From assembly GCF_056746865.1 (NCBI RefSeq), contig NZ_JBWKMP010000003.1: a DNA stretch of 64,000 bases; one strand, given 5' to 3'. The position numbers and the translations under genes are program-made. Of the stretch, positions 4,044 to 45,410 are shown one piece after another. Origin of the DNA: a plasmid. Each line of letters opens with the position of its first letter. The stretch's first letter is position 1. The notes below the pieces were generated by a model. It saw only the letters and a program-made list of their open reading frames with translations. It ran no database searches and was not told the DNA's origin.

Positions 4044-4061
4044 TATTCCTACTCGATTTAG

Positions 4062-4071
4062 TTTTCTAACA
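4062..4071. promoter_or_regulatory. operator-like site TTTTCTAACA
   Basis: Member of the dispersed motif family (see findings). Lies in the leader of the 3006-4043 gene. Confidence 0.45.
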
Positions 4072-4423: not shown

Positions 4424-5452
4424 ATGGGTGAACTAGTTATCTCCGGCGGTTCTGGTGGTTTTCTGCGCGATATTGGCACCGAATACCAGGAAGCTGCAAA
4501 AAACTTTATGCAGTTCATGAACGACCAGGGAGCTTATGCTCCAAATACGCTTCGAGATCTCCGTCTGGTGTTTCATTCCTGGGCGCGGTGGTGTAATTCG
4601 CGCCAGCGCCCCTGGTTCCCGATTACGCCGGAAATGGCCCGCGAGTATCTTCTCCAGTTGCATGAGGCCGATCTGGCCTCGACCACCATTGATAAGCACT
4701 ATGCCATGCTTAACATGCTGCTTTCGCAATGTGGCCTCCCGCCGCTGTCGGACGATAAAAGTGTGTCTCTGGCCATGCGGCGCATCCGGCGCGAAGCGGC
4801 AACGGAAAAAGGCGAGCGAACAGGCCAGGCTATACCGTTGCGGTGGGATGATCTGAAATTGCTCGACGTGTTGCTGTCCCGTTCCGAGCGGCTGGTGGAC
4901 CTGCGCAATCGGGCGTTTCTCTTCGTGGCATACAATACCCTGATGCGTATGTCAGAAATCTCGCGCATCCGCGTCGGAGATCTGGACCAAACAGGTGACA
5001 CTGTAACGCTGCATATTTCACACACGAAGACCATCACGACCGCCGCCGGACTTGATAAGGTGCTTTCTCGTTACACTACCGCCGTACTGAACGACTGGCT
5101 GGAGGTGTCCGGACTTCGAGAACATCCGGACGCGGTGCTATTCCCGCCAATACACCGCAGTAATAAGGCCAGAATCACGACAACGCCCCTTACTGCACCT
5201 GCAATGGAGAAAATATTCAGCGATGCCTGGGGGTTGCTGAACAAACGAGATGCCACGCCGAACAAAGGAAGATACCGGACGTGGACAGGCCATAGTGCGC
5301 GTGTTGGTGCGGCAATTGATATGGCTGAGAAACAGGTGTCAATGGTCGAGATCATGCAGGAAGGTACATGGAAAAAGCCCGAAACACTTATGCGATATTT
5401 GCGCCGTAGCGGGGCATCCGTTGGTGCAAATAGTCGCCTGATGGACTCATAA
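4424..5452 (+). CDS. dre: Dre-type (Cre-family) tyrosine recombinase
   Basis: 342 aa. Cre-like layout with the catalytic-region motifs HSARVGAA and TLMRYLR. Matches my recollection of phage D6 Dre over almost the whole length. Adjacent to an exact rox site. Confidence 0.93.
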   Translation: MGELVISGGSGGFLRDIGTEYQEAAKNFMQFMNDQGAYAPNTLRDLRLVFHSWARWCNSRQRPWFPITPEMAREYLLQLHEADLASTTIDKHYAMLNMLLSQCGLPPLSDDKSVSLAMRRIRREAATEKGERTGQAIPLRWDDLKLLDVLLSRSERLVDLRNRAFLFVAYNTLMRMSEISRIRVGDLDQTGDTVTLHISHTKTITTAAGLDKVLSRYTTAVLNDWLEVSGLREHPDAVLFPPIHRSNKARITTTPLTAPAMEKIFSDAWGLLNKRDATPNKGRYRTWTGHSARVGAAIDMAEKQVSMVEIMQEGTWKKPETLMRYLRRSGASVGANSRLMDS

Positions 5453-5457
5453 ATTAA

Positions 5458-5467
5458 TTTTCTAACA
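5458..5467. promoter_or_regulatory. operator-like site TTTTCTAACA
   Basis: The 19-nt string ATAAATTAATTTTCTAACA is identical to the one after ref (25208-25226). Sits at the head of the 5525-9410 operon. Confidence 0.45.
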
Positions 5468-8323: not shown

Positions 8324-9410
8324 AAACATCACCGAATTACCAGAGTGGAGAGAGCTGGTAAGCAAATATAGCCATGACTGGGCATTAGCAGCAGAAGAGT
8401 TGATGGGTGTTAAGTTAACCCACCAGCAAAAGCTAATTGTTGAGGCGATTCAACAAAAAGGTTCAGCAGTCAGCGTCACCACTCCTGAAGGGATAGGCCA
8501 AAAGACGGTTATCGCTATAATTAGTATTCTTTATACAATCCTGATGCCTGAGTCTAAAACGGTTATTGTTTCCCCAAAGTTCTATAATTGTCGCAGGCAA
8601 GTTATCCAATACATAAGTACGTATTGGGATAGAGTCAGTAACAGAATCCCATTGCTGGGAGAATATTTTAAAGTCGACGGAAACGGCATCAATCATCGTT
8701 ACCGGGAATATTGGGGCTGCGAAATTAAGCCATATCACCGAAATTATGAGGAAGGTTTCGGTGGATATTATGCTGAACATCTTTTAATCATTGTTACGGA
8801 GGCGGCTCTTGCTGGCGATCGGCTATTCAGCATGTTAAGAGCATCGTTAGTAAGTGACGATTCACGTATACTTTTAATGTCCGCTCCTTCAGAGGAGGAG
8901 CATGGACACTTTTACGATTCCCATCATGGTCGTGCAAAATCAGAAGAAAATCCATGTGGTATTTATACAGCCATCAAGCTGAACGCAGAAGATACCCCCA
9001 TTATTTCACAAGGTTATCTTGATAACATTGCAGAAATATATGGTGGTAAAAACAGCGATTACTACCGTCGCATGATTCTTGGTGAGTTTCCAGGTATTAG
9101 GGAGGCTGTTCTTGAATCAGATATGCCGAAAACAATGCGCTTTTCGATGCCTGATGGTAGTGAATGGATAATGCCATTACGAGTGATAGCCCGGCATCAT
9201 GCACAGCACCACGCCAAAAAACATGGCGTTACAACATTGGAGTGGTTGAAATCGCACACCATTCCACTCTTCACTGCAGATCACAATGCTATCGTTGAGT
9301 GGGCAAAAACAATTCCGTGGGAGAATGTCGCTGAATACGCCCACATGCTAAAACCGCCGAAAGACAGGCAAGAAATTAGCTGGCTGACAGCAGAAAAAAT
9401 CATTGAGTGA
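8304..9410 (+). CDS. paralog of the terminase large-subunit ATPase domain (degenerate Walker motifs, no nuclease domain)
   Basis: Residues 1-270 are colinear with PacB residues 20-280 (THQQKLIVEAIQ vs SHQQQQIIQSVQ; HFYDSHHGRAKSEENP vs [16 protein letters not shown]; GEFP vs GQFP). The P-loop is EGIGQKT and Walker B is LLIIVTEAA. The C-terminal 95 aa are unrelated to PacB. Confidence 0.6.
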   Translation: MLMLTPKNITELPEWRELVSKYSHDWALAAEELMGVKLTHQQKLIVEAIQQKGSAVSVTTPEGIGQKTVIAIISILYTILMPESKTVIVSPKFYNCRRQVIQYISTYWDRVSNRIPLLGEYFKVDGNGINHRYREYWGCEIKPYHRNYEEGFGGYYAEHLLIIVTEAALAGDRLFSMLRASLVSDDSRILLMSAPSEEEHGHFYDSHHGRAKSEENPCGIYTAIKLNAEDTPIISQGYLDNIAEIYGGKNSDYYRRMILGEFPGIREAVLESDMPKTMRFSMPDGSEWIMPLRVIARHHAQHHAKKHGVTTLEWLKSHTIPLFTADHNAIVEWAKTIPWENVAEYAHMLKPPKDRQEISWLTAEKIIE

Positions 9411-9417
9411 TAGTAGG

Positions 9418-9446
9418 AAGCCCGCCTGGTTGAGCGGGCTTCTTTT
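9418..9446. terminator. bidirectional terminator between 8304-9410 and doc
   Basis: GAAGCCCGC (9418-9426) pairs with GCGGGCTTC (9434-9442), followed by TTTTC. Confidence 0.7.
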
Positions 9447-9826
9447 CAAATATTGGAACCATATAGTTCACGTAGTTTATCCGCTACTGAAGATACGGGG
9501 ATTTCACCAGTTGCAGCCCCCACCGCAAGTTCCACCAGCACGGGAGAATCATATACCTGTATACCGTTACGGCGTAGAAATAGCAGCGCACTGTTTAGCG
9601 CGGTACGCTTATTGGCATCATTGAATATATGCCCTCTCGCTGTAGCCACCAGGTAGGTGGCGGAGACTTCGAAAAGGTCGGTGATCTCTTCGTAGGCAAC
9701 TCTGGCCTGAACTCTCCCGATAATGGCCTCTGCCCTGCCCGGATCTGACATGCCAGGCAGGCCGCCGTAGCGGCTTATATTCGCATCATGAAGCGCAATA
9801 AGTTCTTCCGGTGATATATGCCTCAT
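9446..9826 (-). CDS. doc: Doc toxin (Fic-fold kinase) of the phd-doc addiction module
   Basis: 126 aa. [22 protein letters not shown]... with the Doc-type Fic motif [12 protein letters not shown]. Matches P1 Doc as I recall it, apart from the C-terminal ~25 aa. Confidence 0.93.
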
Positions 9827-10047
9827 TATCGGTTAACCAGTTCCTTGTTGGTGGAGTCCAGGGTGTCAAACAGGGATGCAAATTCAGCATCCAGCGCCGC
9901 TTTTTTGTAGGCTTCGAAAGTAGCCTTGCTGACAATTACTGCTGGCTCACGGCCTCTGCGGGTGATTTCAACCTCTTCCCCGGCTTCAACATTGTTGAGC
10001 ACTTCAGAAAGGTTGCCACGCGCGGTACGGAAGTTAATGGATTGCAT
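9826..10047 (-). CDS. phd: Phd antitoxin
   Basis: 73 aa from [40 protein letters not shown]..., as in P1 Phd. The stop overlaps the doc start. Confidence 0.93.
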
Positions 10048-10119
10048 AAACACCTCGTGTACTCGTTATGTGTACACAATTATAAACTTCACAGGCATAA
10101 AGCACCAGCACTTTGCAGC

Positions 10120-10509
10120 TTAAATAACCGGACAATCATCAAATTCCCCACTTCGGGCATCATTGATGACATGAGTGATCACACCAAAAACAGCATTACT
10201 GCCCGTGTATCCATCGTCATCTACTGGTAACGCCTCTTTCTTCCCGGTGCTTAAGTCCTCCAGGTGCTGGCGCGGATACTTCCTGTATCTCTTTATGCGA
10301 TATTCACCCTCCATAGCGCACACAAGCAGAGAACCATCAACCGGAGTAAGCGAGGAATCAACCACCAGCAAAGCACCCTGCAATATTCCCTCACGGTGAT
10401 GGCTATCAGCTGCCCGCATGAAGTAGGTCGCTGAAGGATGTCTAATTATCTGCTGATCAAGAGAAATTCGGCTTTCAACATAATCCGCCGCAGGAGAAGG
10501 GAAGCCCAT
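10120..10509 (-). CDS. humD: UmuD'-like protein (P1 HumD homolog)
   Basis: 129 aa starting MGFPSPAADYVE, i.e. already at the position of cleaved UmuD'. S24 peptidase fold. A LexA box lies 19 nt upstream. Confidence 0.88.
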   Translation of the reverse strand: MGFPSPAADYVESRISLDQQIIRHPSATYFMRAADSHHREGILQGALLVVDSSLTPVDGSLLVCAMEGEYRIKRYRKYPRQHLEDLSTGKKEALPVDDDGYTGSNAVFGVITHVINDARSGEFDDCPVI

Positions 10510-10527
10510 AGCGTTTTACCTCAATGA

Positions 10528-10547
10528 TACTGTTTATTCATACAGTA
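10528..10547. promoter_or_regulatory. LexA (SOS) box
   Basis: TACTGTTTATTCATACAGTA fits the consensus TACTG-N10-CAGTA. Lies just upstream of humD. Confidence 0.8.
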
Positions 10548-10632
10548 TACATTGAAAAGGCATAGTTTGTGAAAGCGGGGTTTGTAGGCGCGCCACGCTG
10601 GGGGCTAATCACATTTCTCCCCCATCTTGCCG

Positions 10633-10884
10633 TTATTTTTTTGGTGCATCCTCGTTCTGATACACCGGATCGCTCCCTTTTGGCAACTGGAGGCTTAACT
10701 GCCGATAGTGCCGTAACCGTTCCATGAAATAGGTGCGCAGATTCTCTGGTTGCTCGCGGGCTACCTGTTCAGCTATGACAGGTATGTTCAATCGCTCTTT
10801 GTACGCCACACCGCTGGCAGCCAGATCAACGTTAACCTTATCCCGTTCTTCCTGACTTTTAGCTGCAATATTCCAGTCGCTCAT
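10633..10884 (-). CDS. hot: homolog of DNA polymerase III theta subunit (P1 Hot)
   Basis: 83 aa. [43 protein letters not shown] parallels E. coli HolE ([39 protein letters not shown]). Confidence 0.85.
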
Positions 10885-10886
10885 AT

Positions 10887-11159
10887 TTAAGGCTCACATT
10901 TCCAGATGGTATTCTGAACACCCGAACCGGGCGCAAGATTAGGGTTGGCGTTCGCGCTATGCTGATATACTGCTTTAGACTTCCCATATTGCTGACAGGC
11001 TTTATCTGCGGTTTTTTGCAGGCTATCCAGGCCATACCAACCATCTGACTGTATGCTTACCTTTTCACCGTCGTTGTATTGCACCATTGCACACCCAGAT
11101 ATAGCCAGTATCGCACCGACAATAACGCTTTTCCATAAAACTCTATGCAACATATACAA
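10887..11159 (-). CDS. putative lipoprotein
   Basis: 90 aa. Signal peptide plus lipobox ([12 protein letters not shown]). Confidence 0.6.
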
Positions 11160-11198
11160 AAATCCCCTCTGTGAATTGAGGGGATTTTAGCATGGTGA

Positions 11199-11834
11199 TC
11201 AGATATCGGCCTTATTCGGAATTTTATCAGCCACCAGCGGCAATAAAGCCTTCGCCATTTCATGAACCAACATGGCATCAATGACGCCTAGCGTATGGCC
11301 CGGTTTAATGTTTAATGCCGCCTCAAGATGACTCCTTTCCAGGCCGCTTTTCTCGGCTTGTTTATGACGATCTGGTGTAATAACTTCGCCCAAAACGCGG
11401 CTAATTTTTTCTCGTAATTGCTGGGTGCCAGCACACTTGATCGCTGTATCGTGGAGACGGTTAACCAGTTCGCGATAAACATGCGGCTTAATGCGGATAC
11501 GTTCACCGGTGACGCCCTTTCCTGGCGCTGGCACCGAACTATCCGGATAGTTGCCAGCCTCGTAAGCTACCCGCAGCCAGTGCATGAATGTTTCAGTGGA
11601 CACACAACCACAGTCCACATCGATTTTTCCGCGTTGCTGTTCCAGCCACTGCTCAAAATTCAATCTACACGTATTACTTTCATGTTGCTCTTTTTGTCTC
11701 AAGGCCAGCATCTGCTGGGCTATTTCCAATACTTCATCTGCCGTATATCCAGCACCGTGACCATACATTTCGATACGGGAAATAATCTCTGATATACGCT
11801 CTTCAGTGATTCTGGTCATTTCTTTTTGCGCCAT
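11199..11834 (-). CDS. hypothetical protein (shares a module with 23758-24369)
   Basis: 211 aa. KPHVYRELVNRLHDTAIKCAGTQQLREKI aligns with APHIYRELVNALRDIAAVYHGTEQLRERL of the DUF4406-like protein. Confidence 0.6.
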   Translation of the reverse strand: MAQKEMTRITEERISEIISRIEMYGHGAGYTADEVLEIAQQMLALRQKEQHESNTCRLNFEQWLEQQRGKIDVDCGCVSTETFMHWLRVAYEAGNYPDSSVPAPGKGVTGERIRIKPHVYRELVNRLHDTAIKCAGTQQLREKISRVLGEVITPDRHKQAEKSGLERSHLEAALNIKPGHTLGVIDAMLVHEMAKALLPLVADKIPNKADI

Positions 11835-19488: not shown

Positions 19489-19522
19489 ATGTTAGAAAAT
19501 TAAAATCAATATTCTAACACGG
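19489..19522. promoter_or_regulatory. inverted pair of operator-like sites
   Basis: ATGTTAGAAAAT (19489-19500) and ATTCTAACAC (19511-19520) face each other, 42 nt upstream of the 19447 start. Confidence 0.5.
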
Positions 19523-24564: not shown

Positions 24565-24596
24565 GTGTTAGAAAATCAATTTTGATTTTCTAACAC
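24565..24596. promoter_or_regulatory. palindromic double operator between divergent operons
   Basis: GTGTTAGAAAATCAA-TT-TTGATTTTCTAACAC: perfect 15-bp inverted arms. Lies between the minus-strand early operon and ref. Confidence 0.6.
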
Positions 24597-24640
24597 TTTT
24601 GATCAACCATAGCGGCGATGTAGACAAACCGGGTATTTCT

Positions 24641-25216
24641 ATGAAGCAAAGCTATTGGGAGAAACAGACACAAAAAGCCCTGCAAAAACTGGCTGATCCG
24701 AAATGGCGGGAGGAACAAAGGGCAAAGCGTCTTCAGCAAGCTCAACGCCAGCAGCAGCGTGCGCGAGAAAAAGCCGCATCGCCTGAATATCGGCAAAAGA
24801 AAATTGAAAAAGCGAAGCAATATGAACAGCGAAGAAAAGAGAAGGCCGCTTCTGCTCCTGTCAAAAAAACTCGCGCGTCACGCGGCCTGAAAGGCAGAAC
24901 ACTCACAGCAGATGAGCGCCGGATACAAACTGCCATCGGTGCTCTCCCCTGCATTGCCTGCCATATGCACGGACAGCATAGCCCTGTGGTATCCCTGCAC
25001 CACATCTTCGGGAGAACAGCAGAAAACGCGCATAAATACGTCCTCCCTTTGTGTAAATGGCACCATCAACACGCAGCGCCAGCAGAGATCCGCGAGCAAT
25101 ACCCCTGGTTGGTTCCTGTTCATGCTGATGGAAAAATAGGCGGCAAAGCAGATTTCAGGCGGCACAATGCTGATGAAATGACGTTGTATCAGATGGTGAC
25201 TGAATTAATAAATTAA
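24641..25216 (+). CDS. ref: Ref-type HNH endonuclease (RecA-dependent nuclease of P1)
   Basis: 191 aa from MKQSYWEK. LKGRTLTADERRIQTAIGALPCIACHMHG...SLHHI.GRT...LPLCKWHHQHAAPAEIREQYPWLVPVHADG matches P1 Ref as I recall it. Confidence 0.85.
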   Translation: MKQSYWEKQTQKALQKLADPKWREEQRAKRLQQAQRQQQRAREKAASPEYRQKKIEKAKQYEQRRKEKAASAPVKKTRASRGLKGRTLTADERRIQTAIGALPCIACHMHGQHSPVVSLHHIFGRTAENAHKYVLPLCKWHHQHAAPAEIREQYPWLVPVHADGKIGGKADFRRHNADEMTLYQMVTELIN

Positions 25217-25226
25217 TTTTCTAACA
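25217..25226. promoter_or_regulatory. operator-like site TTTTCTAACA
   Basis: Immediately after the ref stop, at the head of the immI-like region. Confidence 0.45.
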
Positions 25227-25322
25227 TTTTAAGTTGAATTGTGAAATTCGCCGTTGTACATTCACAACCGATTGGTACACCGGTCAACTTTTTGAGACAA
25301 ACCGTTTGGTTTTTCGTATGAT

Positions 25323-25440
25323 TGCCGCCGCCATACCAATGGCGGTGCAATATAGGTGGCTGAAAAGCCCCCGTTGACTCACGGTGTTCCAACCTTTATT
25401 GCGCCGCCACCAGACCGTGGAACAGTCGATGGCGGCTCCG
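25323..25440 (+). ncRNA. candidate structured RNA element A (paralog of element B)
   Basis: Helices 25328-25334/25339-25345, 25385-25391/25418-25424 and 25403-25409/25430-25436. Colinear with element B, with compensatory changes. Followed by AAGGAG and an ATG. Confidence 0.3.
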
Positions 25441-25461
25441 AAAGCAAGGAGTCACTACACT

Positions 25462-25551
25462 ATGAACAGCTACTGTCTTTTCCCATCACTCGTTATCCGC
25501 CACTCACGCGATAATCTGCATTCTTTACTCGCGCTGGGGGTGTCAAAATGA
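25462..25551 (+). CDS. possible 29-aa leader ORF
   Basis: Its stop overlaps the ATG of the next small ORF (ATGA at 25548). AAGGAG lies 10 nt upstream. Confidence 0.25.
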   Translation: MNSYCLFPSLVIRHSRDNLHSLLALGVSK

Positions 25552-25715
25552 CCGTTCGCTATCTCAACTTTCAAATCCAGAACATCACTGGCGGTTGCTA
25601 TGACTGGTTTGTCACTCTCGGAAAAGAAGTGATCACCGGGAAGCTGGATGAAGTGAAAGCTAAAGCAATGGCCTACGCCTGCAAGCAAGCCCAAAAGAAG
25701 AAAAGAAAAGCATAA
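25548..25715 (+). CDS. small hypothetical protein (55 aa, below the ORF-track cutoff)
   Basis: MTVRYLNFQIQNITGGCYDWFVTLGKEVITGKLDEVKAKAMAYACKQAQKKKRKA. GGGGTG Shine-Dalgarno-like sequence upstream. Confidence 0.35.
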   Translation: MTVRYLNFQIQNITGGCYDWFVTLGKEVITGKLDEVKAKAMAYACKQAQKKKRKA

Positions 25716-25820
25716 GAAAACACACAGTTGCGCCCTGGCATTATCGTGGGGTATATTTCTACGGCACCTTAGAAAAACGGGTGCCGGGATTGGAACCCCG
25801 GATAATGTCAAAGGCGACAC

Positions 25821-25843
25821 AGACGCCGAACGCGTCTTTTTTT
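25821..25843 (+). terminator. rho-independent terminator
   Basis: AGACGC (25821-25826) pairs with GCGTCT (25832-25837), followed by a run of T. Confidence 0.65.
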
Positions 25844-25884
25844 GTGTCATGCCATCGCACAGCCATACTTAGCGTTTAGCTCAG

Positions 25885-26002
25885 AGATCAATGGTAGTGC
25901 TGGCTGGGCTGCCGAAAGGCAGGCCGGTTCCCTTTGACGCCGGTAGTTCCAACCCAGTCAGTGCTACCGCCATTGAGATTGGAACCTCACGCGGTAGCTC
26001 CT
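25885..26002 (+). ncRNA. candidate c4-like regulatory RNA (element B) directly upstream of icd
   Basis: GAAA-tetraloop hairpin at 25907-25925. Helices 25946-25952/25979-25985 and 25963-25970/25991-25998. Its position relative to icd and ant matches P1 c4. Confidence 0.4.
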
Positions 26003-26028
26003 TAACTTAGTCAAAGGAGGCTGCCAAT

Positions 26029-26244
26029 ATGGCTACTATCCCTACCCCAACTCATTCTGAATTTATCTGGCGTTTCTATTCCTGCCAAAAACACCTTTAT
26101 ATCTGCGTAATGGCTGCTACCGAAGCAGAGGCGCGCTCATACCTTCCCGAAGAACCCTGCATTTTTGCTGCTCGCTTCACTCTTGATGCGATGGAGATCC
26201 TCAATTACTGGAATCTGCCAATGAACTGCGTGGAGGTGCACTGA
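26029..26244 (+). CDS. icd: Icd-like cell-division inhibitor
   Basis: 71 aa. FIWRFYSC...ICVMAATEAEARSYLPEEPCIFAARF fits the Icd-family pattern (aromatic-rich start, A-x-x-E-A-E-A-R, FAAR). The stop overlaps the next ATG. Confidence 0.65.
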   Translation: MATIPTPTHSEFIWRFYSCQKHLYICVMAATEAEARSYLPEEPCIFAARFTLDAMEILNYWNLPMNCVEVH

Positions 26245-27185
26245 TGAATCTGTCCATCTCTCAAAAAGCGACAATGACCAGCATTGAGATCGCGGAACTG
26301 GTAGGAAGTCGCCCAGATAGTGTGAAGAGAACTATCGAAACACTGGCTAAAAAGAGTGTGATTCAATTTCCACAATCTGTGGAAATTGAAAATAAACAAT
26401 CAGTTGGCCCTCGTCGATTTTCCAAGGCTTACATCTTTGAAGGCGAACAAGGAAAACGAGACAGCATCATTGTCGTCGCGCAGCTCTCTCCGGAATTTAC
26501 CGCCCGGCTGGTGGACCGCTGGCGCGAACTGGAGAATGCCCGGGTACAGTTAAAATCCAAAGCCGAAATCCTGGCCGAAATGGCGCAAATGCATCTTGAG
26601 CATGAACGCCGGATCAACGCCGTTAATGCCCAGGTAGCCGAAGTATCGGCACAAGTGTCCAGGGTCACCGAAACACTTGAGCAGATCAAGAAAGGCAATA
26701 TTCCAGAAGGCTACATTGGCTATCGCCAGTTGGCGGCAAAATGCGGCCTGACTGAAGCCAAATGCCGCAACCTGGTCAACGCTTACCGGATACCCACTGA
26801 TACGCATGAGTTTTTAACTCCCGACGGTTTGCTTGCGCGACGCTCCATTGTGGCCCTGGCCCCCTTCCGGAAAGCCTTTAAGCAGGTTATGTCGGAGGCA
26901 GAACCACGTAACAAACGCTGGTATCATCCCAGGATGGGGCTATTTCAGGCCATTCACCATCCTGTGCCTGAAAGTCCAAAGGCAAACCTGTCGTTGCATA
27001 CCGCCAGAGAGAAGATTAAAACAGGGTATGCAACCGTATGCCGTCGAGCATCCTGGCCTGAAAGTGTCTGGGTATGGCCCGAAAGAGGCTCACGGAAAAA
27101 CTGGCGCACCATTCGCGACGGCAAGATCTGTGCGATTGATTTACAGCCAGAAGATGTAGCAGCGACCGACTGGATTGTTAGTTAA
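26244..27185 (+). CDS. Rha-family regulatory protein / putative antirepressor
   Basis: 313 aa. The N-terminus MTSIEIAELVGSRPDSVKRTIETL fits the Phage_pRha pattern. Occupies the ant slot after icd. The C-terminal 60 aa are weakly DUF2829-like. Confidence 0.6.
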   Translation: MNLSISQKATMTSIEIAELVGSRPDSVKRTIETLAKKSVIQFPQSVEIENKQSVGPRRFSKAYIFEGEQGKRDSIIVVAQLSPEFTARLVDRWRELENARVQLKSKAEILAEMAQMHLEHERRINAVNAQVAEVSAQVSRVTETLEQIKKGNIPEGYIGYRQLAAKCGLTEAKCRNLVNAYRIPTDTHEFLTPDGLLARRSIVALAPFRKAFKQVMSEAEPRNKRWYHPRMGLFQAIHHPVPESPKANLSLHTAREKIKTGYATVCRRASWPESVWVWPERGSRKNWRTIRDGKICAIDLQPEDVAATDWIVS

Positions 27186-35910: not shown

Positions 35911-35957
35911 GCAAAACTGTGTTAGATAATTGAGTTTTATTTTCTAACACAGTTTTG
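35911..35957. promoter_or_regulatory. inverted pair of operator-like sites within a 16-bp-arm palindrome
   Basis: GCAAAACTGTGTTAGA...TCTAACACAGTTTTGC. Lies just upstream of rdgC. Confidence 0.55.
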
Positions 35958-45330: not shown

Positions 45331-45410
45331 TGTTCTAATGTTTTATGTTAGAAAATTAAGATTAAACCATACTAACACAAGATTGTTAACGAAAATTATT
45401 TTTCTAATGC
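45331..45410. promoter_or_regulatory. cluster of four operator-like sites in a divergent control region
   Basis: TGTTCTAATG (45331-45340), ATGTTAGAAAAT (45345-45356), TACTAACACA (45369-45378), TTTTTCTAAT (45399-45408). Confidence 0.5.

What the first reader, a model, noticed from the sequence alone, without database searches (positions are those of the whole stretch)
25230..26244. Apparently duplicated c4-like RNA module: two paralogous structured elements with covarying interleaved helices, each before a Shine-Dalgarno and ATG
About 800 bp between ref and an Icd-like ORF have no credible long ORF but are dense in structure.

Element A (25323-25440) and element B (25885-26002) are colinear:
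- A: CCGTTGAC..CGGTGTTCCAACC..GCCGCCA..TGGAACA..TGGCGGCTCC
- B: CCTTTGAC..CGGTAGTTCCAACC..GCTACCGC..TTGGAAC..GCGGTAGCTCC

Each element can form two interleaved helices, which could be a pseudoknot or mutually exclusive structures:
- A, S1: 25385-25391 with 25418-25424.
- A, S2: 25403-25409 with 25430-25436 (GCCGCCA/TGGCGGC).
- B, S1: 25946-25952 with 25979-25985.
- B, S2: 25963-25970 with 25991-25998 (GCTACCGC/GCGGTAGC).

S2 differs in sequence between A and B but keeps its complementarity. Each element is followed within about 30 nt by AAGGAG and an ATG. After A this is a 29-aa ORF ATGA-coupled to a 55-aa ORF at 25548-25715. After B it is icd at 26029.

A third TTGGAAC sits in the loop of hairpin 25784-25801, just before terminator 25821-25843. 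It is complementary to the GTTCCAA present in both A and B.

GGCTGCC occurs both in a GAAA-tetraloop hairpin (25907-25925) and across the icd Shine-Dalgarno and spacer (26019-26025). GGCAGGCC (25918-25925) could therefore alternatively sequester the icd ribosome site.

The order structured RNA, icd, antirepressor is that of P1 immI, where c4 RNA acts through short complementary boxes. A tandem second module controlling two small ORFs is not something I know from P1.
Basis: partly seen in the sequence, partly recalled or inferred. Interest (0 to 1): 0.65.

Follow-up and report, generated by a model that had tools for sequence, protein, structure and literature searches.

The report
Two tandem C4 antisense-RNA immunity modules
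This stretch of a D6-like phage-plasmid holds two back-to-back copies of the known P1-type "C4 antisense RNA blocks a ribosome site" switch: a canonical, already catalogued copy guarding icd and the antirepressor, and a diverged, unannotated copy guarding a 29-codon leader ORF and a 55-residue protein of unknown function.

Summary
The window is a phage D6-like plasmid prophage.

**Element B** is a textbook C4 antisense RNA (Rfam RF01695, 77 bits). An IsrK/a1b1 RNA precedes it (RF01394, 61 bits), and icd and a Rha/Ant antirepressor follow it.

**Element A** is a diverged C4 paralogue:
- It scores 42.3 bits, just under the cut-off of 45 (E 1e-4 over the whole window).
- It has the same three-way fold.
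- Its own target boxes lie before a 29-codon ORF that is ATGA-coupled to a conserved 55-aa ORF.

- S1 is P1's a'/a2 antisense pairing.
- S2 is a third pairing, between the 3' strand of the C4 closing stem and a site between a2 and b2. It covaries across 60 diverse C4 loci as well as a and b do.
- The proposed hairpin-1/ribosome-site pairing is not supported.

C4-A is 88-91% conserved where its leader is only 54-69% conserved. Module B's boxes switch specificity among sister plasmids, with matched changes at every partner site. A C1-operator-like 17-mer abuts module A's promoter. Tandem C4 modules also occur in lambdoid prophages.

Verdict: a new member of a known kind, of moderate interest.

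The parts
25210..25226 (+). C1-operator-like 17-mer AAATTAATTTTCTAACA. It overlaps the ref stop codon and lies 7 nt upstream of module A's -35 hexamer.
   Evidence: There are 11 copies in the window at up to 3 mismatches, against 0.26 expected. Three pairs are overlapping inverted sites. The same operator plus promoter precedes the orf55 homologue in L040. The function is inferred by analogy with P1 Oc4.
25234..25262 (+). Putative promoter P_A1: TTGAAT, 17 nt, TACATT.
   Evidence: Read from the sequence. The -10 hexamer stays conserved while the surrounding leader diverges. The same arrangement occurs in L040. Not tested experimentally.
25268..25288 (+). Degenerate a1/b1-like leader: a hairpin CCG-AUUGGUACA-CCGG followed by GUCAAC.
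   Evidence: It aligns with IsrK hairpin 2 of module B. The a1-like box has one mismatch to a'. GUCAAC pairs with GUUGAC of the C4-A loop. It is poorly conserved among relatives.
25294..25322 (+). Putative second promoter P_A2 (GAGACA, 17 nt, TATGAT), just upstream of C4-A.
   Evidence: Found by the promoter scan. Both hexamers are conserved islands within otherwise diverged leaders. A role like P1's constitutive P51b is inferred.
25335..25414 (+). C4-A, a diverged C4-type antisense RNA. Boxes: b' UGACUC 25375-25380 (hairpin-2 loop); a' UGUUCCA 25385-25391 (joint); c' GCCGCCA 25403-25409 (3' strand of the closing stem).
   Evidence: Rfam C4 match of 42.3 bits against a gathering score of 45; E 1.9e-6 locally and 1.1e-4 over the whole window. 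Fold z-score -5.3. It is 88-91% conserved where the leader is 54-69% conserved. A U.U mismatch in the closing stem becomes C-G or U.G in relatives.
25418..25454 (+). Target leader of module A: a2 UGGAACA 25418-25424; c2 UGGCGGC 25430-25436; SD AAGGAG 25446-25451, overlapped by b2 GAGUCA 25449-25454.
   Evidence: 0 of 20,000 shuffles match all three boxes. The boxes are kept in all lineages except the decayed copy L004.
25462..25551 (+). 29-codon leader ORF. Its TGA stop overlaps the ATG of orf55 (ATGA).
   Evidence: A 31-codon homologue with the same ...GVSK end occurs in plasmids whose module A is about 81% identical. In the L002/L013 type, a 61-aa Icd-like gene occupies this place.
25548..25715 (+). 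orf55, a conserved 55-aa protein of unknown function and the cargo of module A.
   Evidence: Matches phrog_7786 at E 9e-42. Found only in D6-like phage-plasmids. The AF2 model has pLDDT 84 and no fold match.
25728..25757 (+). Putative isrK promoter: TTGCGC, 18 nt, TATATT.
   Evidence: Read from the sequence. Its position relative to the first base of the Rfam isrK match (25764) fits a transcription start there.
25764..25842 (+). IsrK/a1b1 sRNA. a1 UUGGAAC 25790-25796 lies in the hairpin-2 loop. b1 GUCAAAGG is at 25807-25814. The intrinsic terminator is at 25821-25843.
   Evidence: Rfam isrK match of 61.3 bits (gathering score 50), overlapped by a weak c4-a1b1 match. Terminator scan. Fold. a1 and b1 covary with a' and b' among D6-like plasmids.
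25887..25974 (+). C4-B, the canonical C4 antisense RNA. Boxes: b' CCUUUGAC 25931-25938; a' GUUCCAA 25946-25952; c' GCUACCGC 25963-25970.
   Evidence: Rfam C4 match of 77.1 bits. Fold z-score -5.0. Family covariation: 97.1% of cells paired, and 29 of 42 pairs show changes on both sides.
25979..26020 (+). Target leader of module B: a2 UUGGAAC 25979-25985; c2 GCGGUAGC 25991-25998; b2 GUCAAAGG 26010-26017, overlapping SD AAGGAGG 26014-26020.
   Evidence: The order matches P1's a2, c2-like site and b2. Covariation is shown.
26029..26244 (+). icd-like gene (71 aa).
   Evidence: Matches phrog_1426 at E 4e-41. Annotated as Icd-like in D6 and related plasmids.
26244..27185 (+). Antirepressor (Rha N-terminal domain, Ant type). 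Its ATG overlaps the icd stop codon (TGATG).
   Evidence: Matches phrog_63 'anti-repressor Ant' at E 3.5e-58 and has a weak PF09669 match.

Best explanation
Between ref and the antirepressor gene lie two tandem immI-type riboregulatory modules of the P1/P7 c4 kind.

**Module B (25728-27185)** is canonical. A promoter drives an IsrK-type sRNA that carries decoy boxes a1 and b1 and ends at a terminator. Read-through transcripts contain C4-B, then the target boxes a2, c2 and b2, then icd and the overlapping antirepressor gene. By analogy with P1, C4-B is cut out of the precursor and pairs in trans with a2 through its single-stranded joint (a') and with b2 through its hairpin-2 loop (b'). Box b2 covers the Shine-Dalgarno, so icd translation is blocked. 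The translationally coupled antirepressor then stays off. IsrK competes for a' and b' and relieves this.

**Module A (25210-25715)** is a diverged paralogue of the same device:
- a C1-operator-like site and promoter;
- a degenerate a1/b1 leader and a second promoter;
- C4-A;
- its own a2, c2 and b2/SD boxes;
- a 29-codon leader ORF that is ATGA-coupled to orf55.

C4-A is predicted to repress the leader ORF and, through coupling, orf55. In this plasmid both C4 RNAs and IsrK share the same a box. The b and c boxes are module-specific.

Its role is inferred only. It is either a third target contact made by opening the end of the closing stem, or an alternative cis conformer (H-type pseudoknot with a'/a2) of the unprocessed transcript.

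**Shown versus inferred.** Shown here: homology, folds, box complementarity, covariation and conservation. Inferred from P1 and Gifsy-1 work: processing, action in trans, translational block, coupling and polarity.
For: **Identity and homology**
- Rfam matches: C4-B 77.1 bits, isrK 61.3 bits, C4-A 42.3 bits with E 1.1e-4 over the whole window.
- The window is D6-like: 94.6% identical to phage D6 and 99.4% to plasmid NZ_LR890273.
- The box layout maps one-to-one onto P1's annotated a1, b1, c4, a2, b2 and icd.
- The modules are colinear and adopt the same fold.

**Complementarity and covariation**
- The three boxes are matched jointly by 0 of 20,000 shuffles in each module.
- Own-locus versus other-locus 6-mer complementarity over 81 distinct C4 loci peaks only at the b' loop, the a' joint and the c' strand.
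- On 60 sequences, the C4 fold plus a'/a2 and b'/b2 gives 97.1% paired cells and covariation of 0.537. Shuffles give 0.189 (0 of 500 reach the observed value) and slid controls at most 0.094.
- c'/c2 gives 95.4% paired cells, 6 of 8 pairs with changes on both sides, and covariation of 0.443 against 0.233 for shuffles (0 of 500).
- Among sister D6-like plasmids, module B switches boxes with matched changes at every partner site: b'/b1/b2, a'/a1/a2, and c'/c2/5' strand.

**Conservation and context of module A**
- C4-A is 88-91% conserved against 54-69% for its leader.
- The leader ORF keeps its coupling to orf55 in a lineage about 81% identical. An Icd-like gene takes its place in L002/L013.
- The operator-like motif is strongly enriched and abuts P_A1.

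**Literature**
- Trans activity and decoy logic come from the IsrK paper (PMC4825925) and from the Weinberg 2010 supplement, which summarises the P1 model.
Against: - C4-A falls 2.7 bits below Rfam's curated cut-off. Its hairpins are short and its boxes are only 7, 6 and 7 bp.
- Module A's upstream a1/b1-like leader is mismatched and poorly conserved, so a decoy may be lacking.
- In the L012/L035 type, a G-to-A change in c2 and another in the 5' strand each create an A.C opposite the unchanged c'. These changes are not compensatory.
- One plasmid (L004) has lost a'.
- A distant relative (L040) expresses its orf55 homologue from the same operator-promoter with no C4-A at all. The RNA is therefore dispensable for orf55 in some lineages.
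- No expression, processing or binding data exist for either RNA in this element.
- Covariation cannot tell cis pairing from trans pairing.
Confidence: 0.8

Rival explanations
1. Module A is a decaying, non-functional duplicate of a C4 module. On this view its remaining complementarities are leftovers, and orf55 is controlled only by the operator-linked promoter.
For: - The Rfam score is below threshold.
- The a1/b1 leader is degenerate.
- The leader ORF is short where relatives carry a 61-aa Icd-like gene.
- L004 has lost a'.
- L040 carries orf55 without any C4-A.
- The c2 and 5'-strand changes in the L012 type are not compensatory.
Against: - The core is 88-91% conserved while the adjoining leader has drifted to 54-69%.
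- All three target boxes and the SD overlap are kept in four of five sequence types.
- A closing-stem mismatch is repaired, not worsened, in relatives.
- The fold z-score is -5.3.
- 0 of 20,000 shuffles reproduce the three boxes.
Confidence: 0.15
2. The elements act purely in cis. a'/a2 and c'/c2 would form an H-type pseudoknot, or mutually exclusive hairpins, in the leader of each mRNA and set translation without any diffusible RNA.
For: - The order a' < c' < a2 < c2 is that of an H-type pseudoknot, with workable loop lengths.
- c' cannot pair with c2 while the closing stem is intact, so an alternative conformer is implied.
- Weinberg 2010 raised a cis role for the 3' half of P1.
- The IsrK paper demonstrates two alternative conformers of the read-through RNA.
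- Covariation is blind to the difference between cis and trans.
Against: - By established knowledge, P1 and P7 genetics define c4 as a trans-acting, processed immunity RNA (Citron & Schuster 1990, as summarised and in the P1/P7 annotations).
- Decoy copies a1 and b1 on a separately terminated sRNA make sense only for a diffusible partner.
- The 17-bp closing stem forms first and is far more stable than the 7-8 bp c'/c2 pairing.
- Only 7 of 60 loci have a U-tract after c2, so it is not generally an attenuator.
Confidence: 0.1
3. The region encodes small proteins and not RNAs. Candidates are the 39-aa 'ash family protein' ORF across C4-B (25891-26010) and the 47-59-aa ORFs across C4-A.
For: - PGAP annotates an 'ash family protein' over C4-B in many plasmids.
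- The Gifsy-1 study treated the equivalent stretch as orf45 and reported effects of its start codons.
Against: - Substitutions are compensatory for base pairs and do not follow codons.
- Strong covariance-model matches are found.
- The ORFs across C4-A are not preserved, given the indels among the variants.
- Neither Pfam nor PHROG matches the 29-aa leader ORF.
Confidence: 0.03

Closest known systems
P1/P7 immI operon (c4 antisense RNA, icd, ant1/2)
   Same: - The order matches P1: operator/promoters, a1 b1, C4 three-way-junction RNA, a2, b2 over the icd Shine-Dalgarno, and icd overlapping the antirepressor gene.
- a' lies in the joint and b' in the hairpin-2 loop.
- Specificity is set by short boxes that differ between heteroimmune relatives. 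P1 and P7 differ in both a and b. D6-like plasmids differ in the same way.
   Different: - There are two modules in tandem, and the closest complete plasmid has a third next to repL.
- The a1/b1 element is a separately terminated IsrK-type sRNA.
- The antirepressor is of the Rha/Ant type.
- Module A guards a 29-codon ORF plus orf55 instead of icd plus ant, and has no matched decoy.
- The operator sequence differs from P1's.
Gifsy-1 isrK-orf45(STnc1160)-anrP locus of Salmonella (Hershko-Shalev et al. 2016, PMC4825925)
   Same: - An IsrK sRNA with a Rho-independent terminator is followed by read-through into a structured stretch and an antirepressor.
- IsrK acts in trans on the read-through RNA, through the boxes that correspond here to a1/a'.
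- The window's IsrK scores 61.3 bits against that family.
   Different: - Here an icd gene sits between C4 and the antirepressor.
- The paper did not describe the downstream stretch as a C4 RNA.
- Module A has no counterpart there.
P4 CI RNA with seqA/seqC
   Same: It is a processed immunity RNA of related sequence; the P4 cI region is hit by the module B query. It pairs with complementary sites upstream and downstream of itself.
   Different: P4 CI causes premature transcription termination rather than blocking a ribosome site. It is not followed by icd or an antirepressor.
Tandem IsrK-C4-Rha arrays in lambdoid prophages
   Same: These are two or three complete promoter-IsrK-C4-target-gene modules in a row. 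Each module has different a and b boxes and the same c box logic.
   Different: All modules there are near-identical apart from their boxes, and each guards a 120-aa Rha-domain protein. In the window the two modules are old, diverged paralogues with different cargo.

Membership tests
C4 antisense RNA (Rfam RF01695): element B | Covariance-model score at or above the curated gathering score | tested here: met
   77.1 bits against 45; full-length model match at 25887-25974.
C4 antisense RNA (Rfam RF01695): element B | Long closing stem enclosing two hairpins, with a single-stranded joint before the 3' strand | tested here: met
   The MFE fold shows this architecture, z -5.0. On 60 sequences, 99% of cells are paired in each of the three stems. 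Changes on both sides occur in 13 of 17 closing-stem pairs and all 5 hairpin-1 pairs. Hairpin 2 does not vary.
C4 antisense RNA (Rfam RF01695): element B | a' and b' boxes complementary to downstream a2 and b2, with b2 over the ribosome site of the next gene | tested here: met
   7-bp a'/a2 and 8-bp b'/b2 pairings, with b2 overlapping AAGGAGG. Covariation is shown.
C4 antisense RNA (Rfam RF01695): element B | Processed from the precursor (RNase P) to about 77 nt and acts in trans | not testable with these tools
   Needs Northern or dRNA-seq data and genetics.
C4 antisense RNA (Rfam RF01695): element A | Covariance-model score at or above the curated gathering score | tested here: not met
   42.3 bits against 45. 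The match spans the full model, with E 1.9e-6 locally and 1.1e-4 over the whole window. Relatives score 38-40 bits. I therefore call it a diverged C4 paralogue and not a curated family member.
C4 antisense RNA (Rfam RF01695): element A | Long closing stem enclosing two hairpins, with a single-stranded joint | tested here: met
   The MFE fold shows the same architecture, z -5.3. The closing stem differs from B at most positions yet stays paired. A U.U mismatch becomes C-G or U.G in relatives.
C4 antisense RNA (Rfam RF01695): element A | a' and b' boxes complementary to downstream sites, one of them over a ribosome site | tested here: met
   a'/a2 is 7 bp. b'/b2 is 6 bp and overlaps AAGGAG. c'/c2 is 7 bp. 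Jointly, 0 of 20,000 shuffles match all three.
C4 antisense RNA (Rfam RF01695): element A | Matched upstream a1/b1 decoy | tested here: inconclusive
   UUGGUAC has one mismatch to a'. GUCAAC pairs with a shifted part of the loop. The region is poorly conserved among relatives.
IsrK (RF01394) / c4-a1b1 (RF03163): 25764-25842 | Covariance-model score at or above the gathering score | tested here: met
   isrK scores 61.3 bits against 50. The overlapping c4-a1b1 match reaches only 22.4 bits against 46.7. It is therefore filed under isrK.
IsrK (RF01394) / c4-a1b1 (RF03163): 25764-25842 | Carries a1 and b1 boxes complementary to a' and b' of the adjacent C4, and ends at an intrinsic terminator | tested here: met
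   a1 is at 25790-25796 and b1 at 25807-25814. Both change together with a'/a2 and b'/b2 among D6-like plasmids. Upstream own-locus complementarity is 0.44-1.0 against at most 0.06 for other loci. The terminator is shown.
IsrK (RF01394) / c4-a1b1 (RF03163): 25764-25842 | Hfq-binding sRNA that activates the read-through mRNA in trans | not testable with these tools
   Known only for Gifsy-1.
P1-type immI operon | C4 followed by icd, whose stop codon overlaps the start of an antirepressor gene | tested here: met
   Module B: icd 26029-26244 and ant 26244-27185 share a TGATG overlap. Module A does not meet this in the window (29-codon ORF plus orf55). However, the L002/L013 type has an Icd-like gene at that place.
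P1-type immI operon | Transcription from a C1-controlled promoter plus a constitutive one | tested here: inconclusive
   An operator-like 17-mer at 25210-25226 abuts P_A1, and a second promoter-like site lies at 25294-25322. No operator-like site is found at the isrK promoter. Binding was not tested.

The most novel reading that the evidence does not exclude
C4-type immunity RNAs may use three specificity determinants, not the two textbook ones. The third (c'/c2) links the 3' strand of the closing stem to a site between a2 and b2. With a'/a2 it forms an H-type pseudoknot or a strand-exchange complex. On this reading, D6-like phage-plasmids run a small RNA network of three C4 modules. An invariant, C1-operator-linked module A gates orf55, and its transcription may run on into module B. 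In this lineage module A shares its a box with C4-B and with the IsrK sponge. The b and c boxes keep the modules otherwise orthogonal.
Probability: 0.3. Interest if true: 0.6.

Novelty: new member of a known kind. Interest (0 to 1): 0.42.

Why it matters
The c4/immI switch is the classic case of an antisense RNA that sets phage immunity specificity. D6-like phage-plasmids are common in clinical and food-chain E. coli and Salmonella.

- **A missed regulator.** These elements carry an extra, unannotated C4-type regulator in front of a conserved gene of unknown function. This gives that gene a testable regulatory context. It also shows that curated score cut-offs miss diverged paralogues.
- **Natural specificity switching.** The comparative data show a, b and c boxes switching among sister plasmids, which resembles P1/P7 heteroimmunity.
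- **A third pairing.** A third covarying pairing runs across the whole family. If functional, it would amend the two-box model and could be tested directly in P1.

None of this is a new kind of mechanism.

Tried and rejected
Hairpin 1 shows no locus-specific complementarity to the leader across 81 loci. Rejected.
2. **c2 pairing with the SD-spacer (GGCUGCC) as an intrinsic sequestering hairpin.** 79.7% of cells are paired, but there is no covariation beyond shuffles, and the leader folds have z about -0.7. Left open; not claimed.
3. **c'/c2 as an intrinsic terminator** (a hint in Weinberg 2010). Only 7 of 60 loci have a U-tract after c2. Rejected as a general role.
4. **The 29-codon ORF as an internally deleted icd.** Only the first few codons align with the Icd-like gene of L002, and that gene shows no BLASTP similarity to the window's Icd. 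Not supported; left as a possibility.
5. **Function of orf55.** Pfam gives only sub-threshold hits, the matching PHROG is of unknown function, and the AF2 model has no match in PDB or BFVD. No result.
6. **P1 C1-operator consensus in the window.** No matches at up to 3 mismatches. A different 17-mer was then found.
7. **Covariation within module A.** The core is nearly invariant, so within-family covariation is thin. Support comes from paralogue and family comparison instead.
8. **Literature access.** The D6 genome paper (PMC5800970) and the P1 genome paper (PMC523184) are not held in the library. I could not check whether they mention module A or the third pairing.
Full report
**What the window is.** The 1-kb region is 94.6% identical to Escherichia phage D6 and 99.4% identical to E. 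coli plasmid NZ_LR890273. About 100 D6-like phage-plasmids of E. coli, Salmonella and Shigella carry the whole stretch. The gene order is as follows:
- ref (24599-25216);
- the region in question;
- an icd-like gene (26029-26244);
- an overlapping Rha/Ant-type antirepressor (26244-27185).

**Check of the observation.**
- Folded alone, 25335-25414 and 25887-25974 adopt the same architecture: a long closing stem, two hairpins and a single-stranded joint. The z-scores are -5.3 and -5.0.
- In each module, 0 of 20,000 dinucleotide shuffles of the downstream leader reproduce the three complementary boxes together.

**What the parts are.** Rfam, searched over the whole 64-kb window with permissive filters, reports exactly three matches:

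| Match | Coordinates | Bits (gathering score) | E-value |
|---|---|---|---|
| C4 antisense RNA | 25887-25974 | 77.1 (45) | 2.4e-13 |
| isrK | 25764-25842 | 61.3 (50) | 1.1e-10 |
| C4, second match | 25335-25414 | 42.3 (45) | 1.1e-4 |

The annotated P1 record gives the key to the boxes. In P1 c4:
- a' lies in the joint between hairpin 2 and the 3' strand of the closing stem;
- b' lies in the hairpin-2 loop;
- a1 and b1 lie upstream;
- a2 and b2 lie downstream, with b2 over the icd Shine-Dalgarno.

Mapped onto module B:
- a' is GUUCCAA (25946-25952).
- a2 is UUGGAAC (25979-25985).
- b' is CCUUUGAC (25931-25938).
- b1 is GUCAAAGG (25807-25814), in IsrK.
- b2 is GUCAAAGG (26010-26017), overlapping AAGGAGG.

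Module A has the same layout:
- a' UGUUCCA (25385-25391) pairs with a2 UGGAACA (25418-25424).
- b' UGACUC (25375-25380) pairs with b2 GAGUCA (25449-25454), overlapping AAGGAG.

This pairing joins the end of the 3' strand of the closing stem (c') to a site between a2 and b2 (c2). P1 has the same feature with one mismatch (CCUGCCACC with GGUAGCAGG).

I collected C4 loci from viral contigs with a degenerate pattern and obtained 81 distinct sequences. For every 6-mer of C4, I asked whether its complement occurs in that locus's own flank more often than in the flanks of loci with a different 6-mer. Only three places stand out:

| Region of C4 | Downstream: own vs control | Upstream: own vs control |
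|---|---|---|
| b' loop | 0.66-0.72 vs at most 0.05 | 0.44-0.67 vs at most 0.06 |
| a' joint | 0.85-0.96 vs 0.03-0.05 | 0.86-1.0 vs 0.02-0.03 |
| c' strand | 0.45-0.53 vs 0.02-0.09 | no signal |

Hairpin 1 shows nothing.

On a 60-sequence alignment:
- The C4 fold plus a'/a2 and b'/b2 has 97.1% of cells paired. Of 42 pairs, 29 show changes on both sides. Covariation is 0.537 against 0.189 in shuffles (0 of 500 reach it), and at most 0.094 when the partners are slid.
- c'/c2 has 95.4% of cells paired. Of 8 pairs, 6 show changes on both sides. Covariation is 0.443 against 0.233 (0 of 500), and at most 0.178 when slid.

The clearest single case is within the D6-like plasmids themselves. Module B exists in at least four specificity types:

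| Box set | Window type | Variant type(s) |
|---|---|---|
| b' / b1, b2 | CUUUGAC / GUCAAAG | CUUUUGC / GCAAAAG |
| a' / a1, a2 | GUUCCAA / UUGGAAC | GUCUCAA / UUGAGAC (D6 itself); AGACCAA / UUGGUCU |
| c' / c2 | CUACCGC / GCGGUAG | CCACCGC / GCGGUGG, with the matching change in the 5' strand |

Every partner site changes together.

**Is module A alive?** Its core is nearly invariant in 41 copies (24 distinct). Against the most diverged relatives:
- the core is 88-91% identical, while the leader just upstream is 54-69% identical;
- a U.U mismatch in the closing stem becomes C-G or U.G;
- the three target boxes and the SD overlap are kept in four of five sequence types.

Evidence on the other side:
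- One plasmid (L004) has lost a'.
- The L012 type has non-compensatory G-to-A changes in c2 and in the 5' strand.
- The upstream a1/b1-like leader is degenerate.

The cargo differs from P1:
- A 29-codon ORF has a stop codon overlapping the start of orf55. This coupling is kept in a lineage about 81% identical.
- orf55 is a 55-aa protein (phrog_7786) found only in D6-like elements. It has a confident but unmatched predicted fold.
- In the E. fergusonii and Shigella plasmids (L002, L005, L013), module A is the only module at this locus. There it precedes a 61-aa Icd-like gene and then orf55.
- In a distant metagenomic relative (L040), the orf55 homologue follows the same operator and promoter with no C4-A.

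**Promoters and operator.** A 17-mer, AAATTAATTTTCTAACA, occurs 11 times in the window at up to 3 mismatches, against 0.26 expected. Three pairs are overlapping inverted sites, as with P1's bivalent C1 operators. Its left half resembles the reverse complement of the P1 operator. The P1 consensus itself has no match.

A perfect copy sits at 25210-25226, 7 nt before TTGAAT-17-TACATT. A second promoter-like site (GAGACA-17-TATGAT, 25294-25322) lies just before C4-A. Both are conserved islands in diverged leaders. This resembles P1's C1-controlled P51a plus constitutive P51b, but that parallel is an inference.

**How it most likely works.** The steps below are inferred from P1 and Gifsy-1 work.
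- Each C4 is excised from its precursor.
- It pairs in trans with a2 and b2 of its own leader and blocks the ribosome site.
- In B, this silences icd and, through coupling, the antirepressor. In A, it silences the leader ORF and orf55.
- IsrK carries decoy boxes and relieves repression.

Duplex energies predict the following:
- The a box is interchangeable between A, B and IsrK in this plasmid (-8.3 to -9.5 kcal/mol).
- The b and c boxes prefer their own leader: -8.7 vs -5.9 and -15.3 vs -10.8 for A, and -12.7 vs -7.9 and -16.3 vs -10.2 for B.
- In phage D6 itself the a boxes of the two modules differ.

The role of c'/c2 is open. c' is paired within the closing stem, so c2 must either invade it after a and b have docked, or pair with it in an alternative conformer of the unprocessed RNA. 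It is not generally a terminator.

**Comparison with what is known.**
- Module B and IsrK are already annotated in the D6-like plasmid pYU39_89. So is a second c4-icd-kilA region next to repL (PMC6799933, S1 table).
- I confirmed that repL-side module in the closest complete plasmid, outside this window. It has a hybrid P7-type a box and P1-type b box.
- Nothing is annotated between ref and orf55 in that table, nor in the D6 record. Module A is therefore a third C4-type element, unannotated in the records I could see.
- Weinberg et al. 2010 noted that the 3' half of the C4 closing stem sometimes overlaps a predicted terminator hairpin. This is a partial earlier sighting of c'/c2.
- Tandem modules are not unique to D6. 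One lambdoid prophage contig has three complete IsrK-C4-Rha modules in a row with different boxes, and another has two. The P1-like phages RCS47 and JL22 each carry a module-B-type locus in addition to a P1-type one.

**Verdict.** The system belongs to a known kind. The new items are:
- a diverged, conserved paralogue with unusual cargo;
- family-wide support for a third pairing;
- natural box switching among sister plasmids.

Interest is moderate.

Noticed in passing
window 4055-4071, 5451-5467, 19490-19519, 24566-24595, 25210-25226, 35920-35949, 45346-45362, 45393-45409: A dispersed 17-bp motif, AAATTAATTTTCTAACA, occurs 11 times against 0.26 expected. Three pairs are overlapping inverted sites. 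It is probably the D6-type C1 repressor operator. The P1 operator consensus has no match in the window.
   Followed up: partly
L056 (IMGVR_UViG_2671181028_000005), about 9290-11250 on the minus strand; L126: L056 holds three tandem promoter-IsrK-C4-target-gene modules and L126 holds two. Each module guards a 120-aa Rha-domain protein and has different a and b boxes. These are arrays of RNA-gated antirepressor-like genes in lambdoid prophages.
   Followed up: partly
L001, L003, L008-L039 (D6-like plasmids), module B: Module B exists in at least four box combinations among near-identical plasmids, with matched changes at a'/a1/a2, b'/b1/b2 and c'/c2/5' strand. This looks like natural heteroimmunity types. 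C4-A does not vary in the same plasmids.
   Followed up: yes
L164 5289-5767 (NZ_LR890273 17288-17766, outside the window): A third module lies next to repL: c4-a1b1 (53.9 bits), C4 (70 bits), icd and a Rha-family gene. Its a box is P7-type and its b box is P1-type, so it is a recombinant specificity.
   Followed up: partly
window 25891-26010 (+); L001 3473-3772 (-): Public annotations call protein genes across these RNAs. PGAP calls a 39-aa 'ash family protein' exactly over C4-B. The D6 record has orf84 on the opposite strand, across orf55's 3' end, IsrK and C4-B. Both are probably spurious.
   Followed up: no
L040 2385-2677 (JGI 3300039866 contig): A distant D6-like relative has the same operator and promoter directly in front of an orf55 homologue (63% identical), with no C4-A. 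A canonical IsrK-C4 module follows. C4-A therefore looks like a layer added in the E. coli/Salmonella lineage.
   Followed up: partly
L041/L042 2672-4361: In some plasmids an IS200/IS605-type element (TnpB plus Y1 transposase) is inserted at the 3' end of orf55. This changes the protein's C-terminus (P0014) and replaces module B.
   Followed up: no
window 25993-26025: c2 plus the following CUCCUU can also pair with the SD and spacer (AAGGAGGCUGCC) of icd. 79.7% of cells are paired across the family, but there is no covariation, so its significance is unclear.
   Followed up: partly
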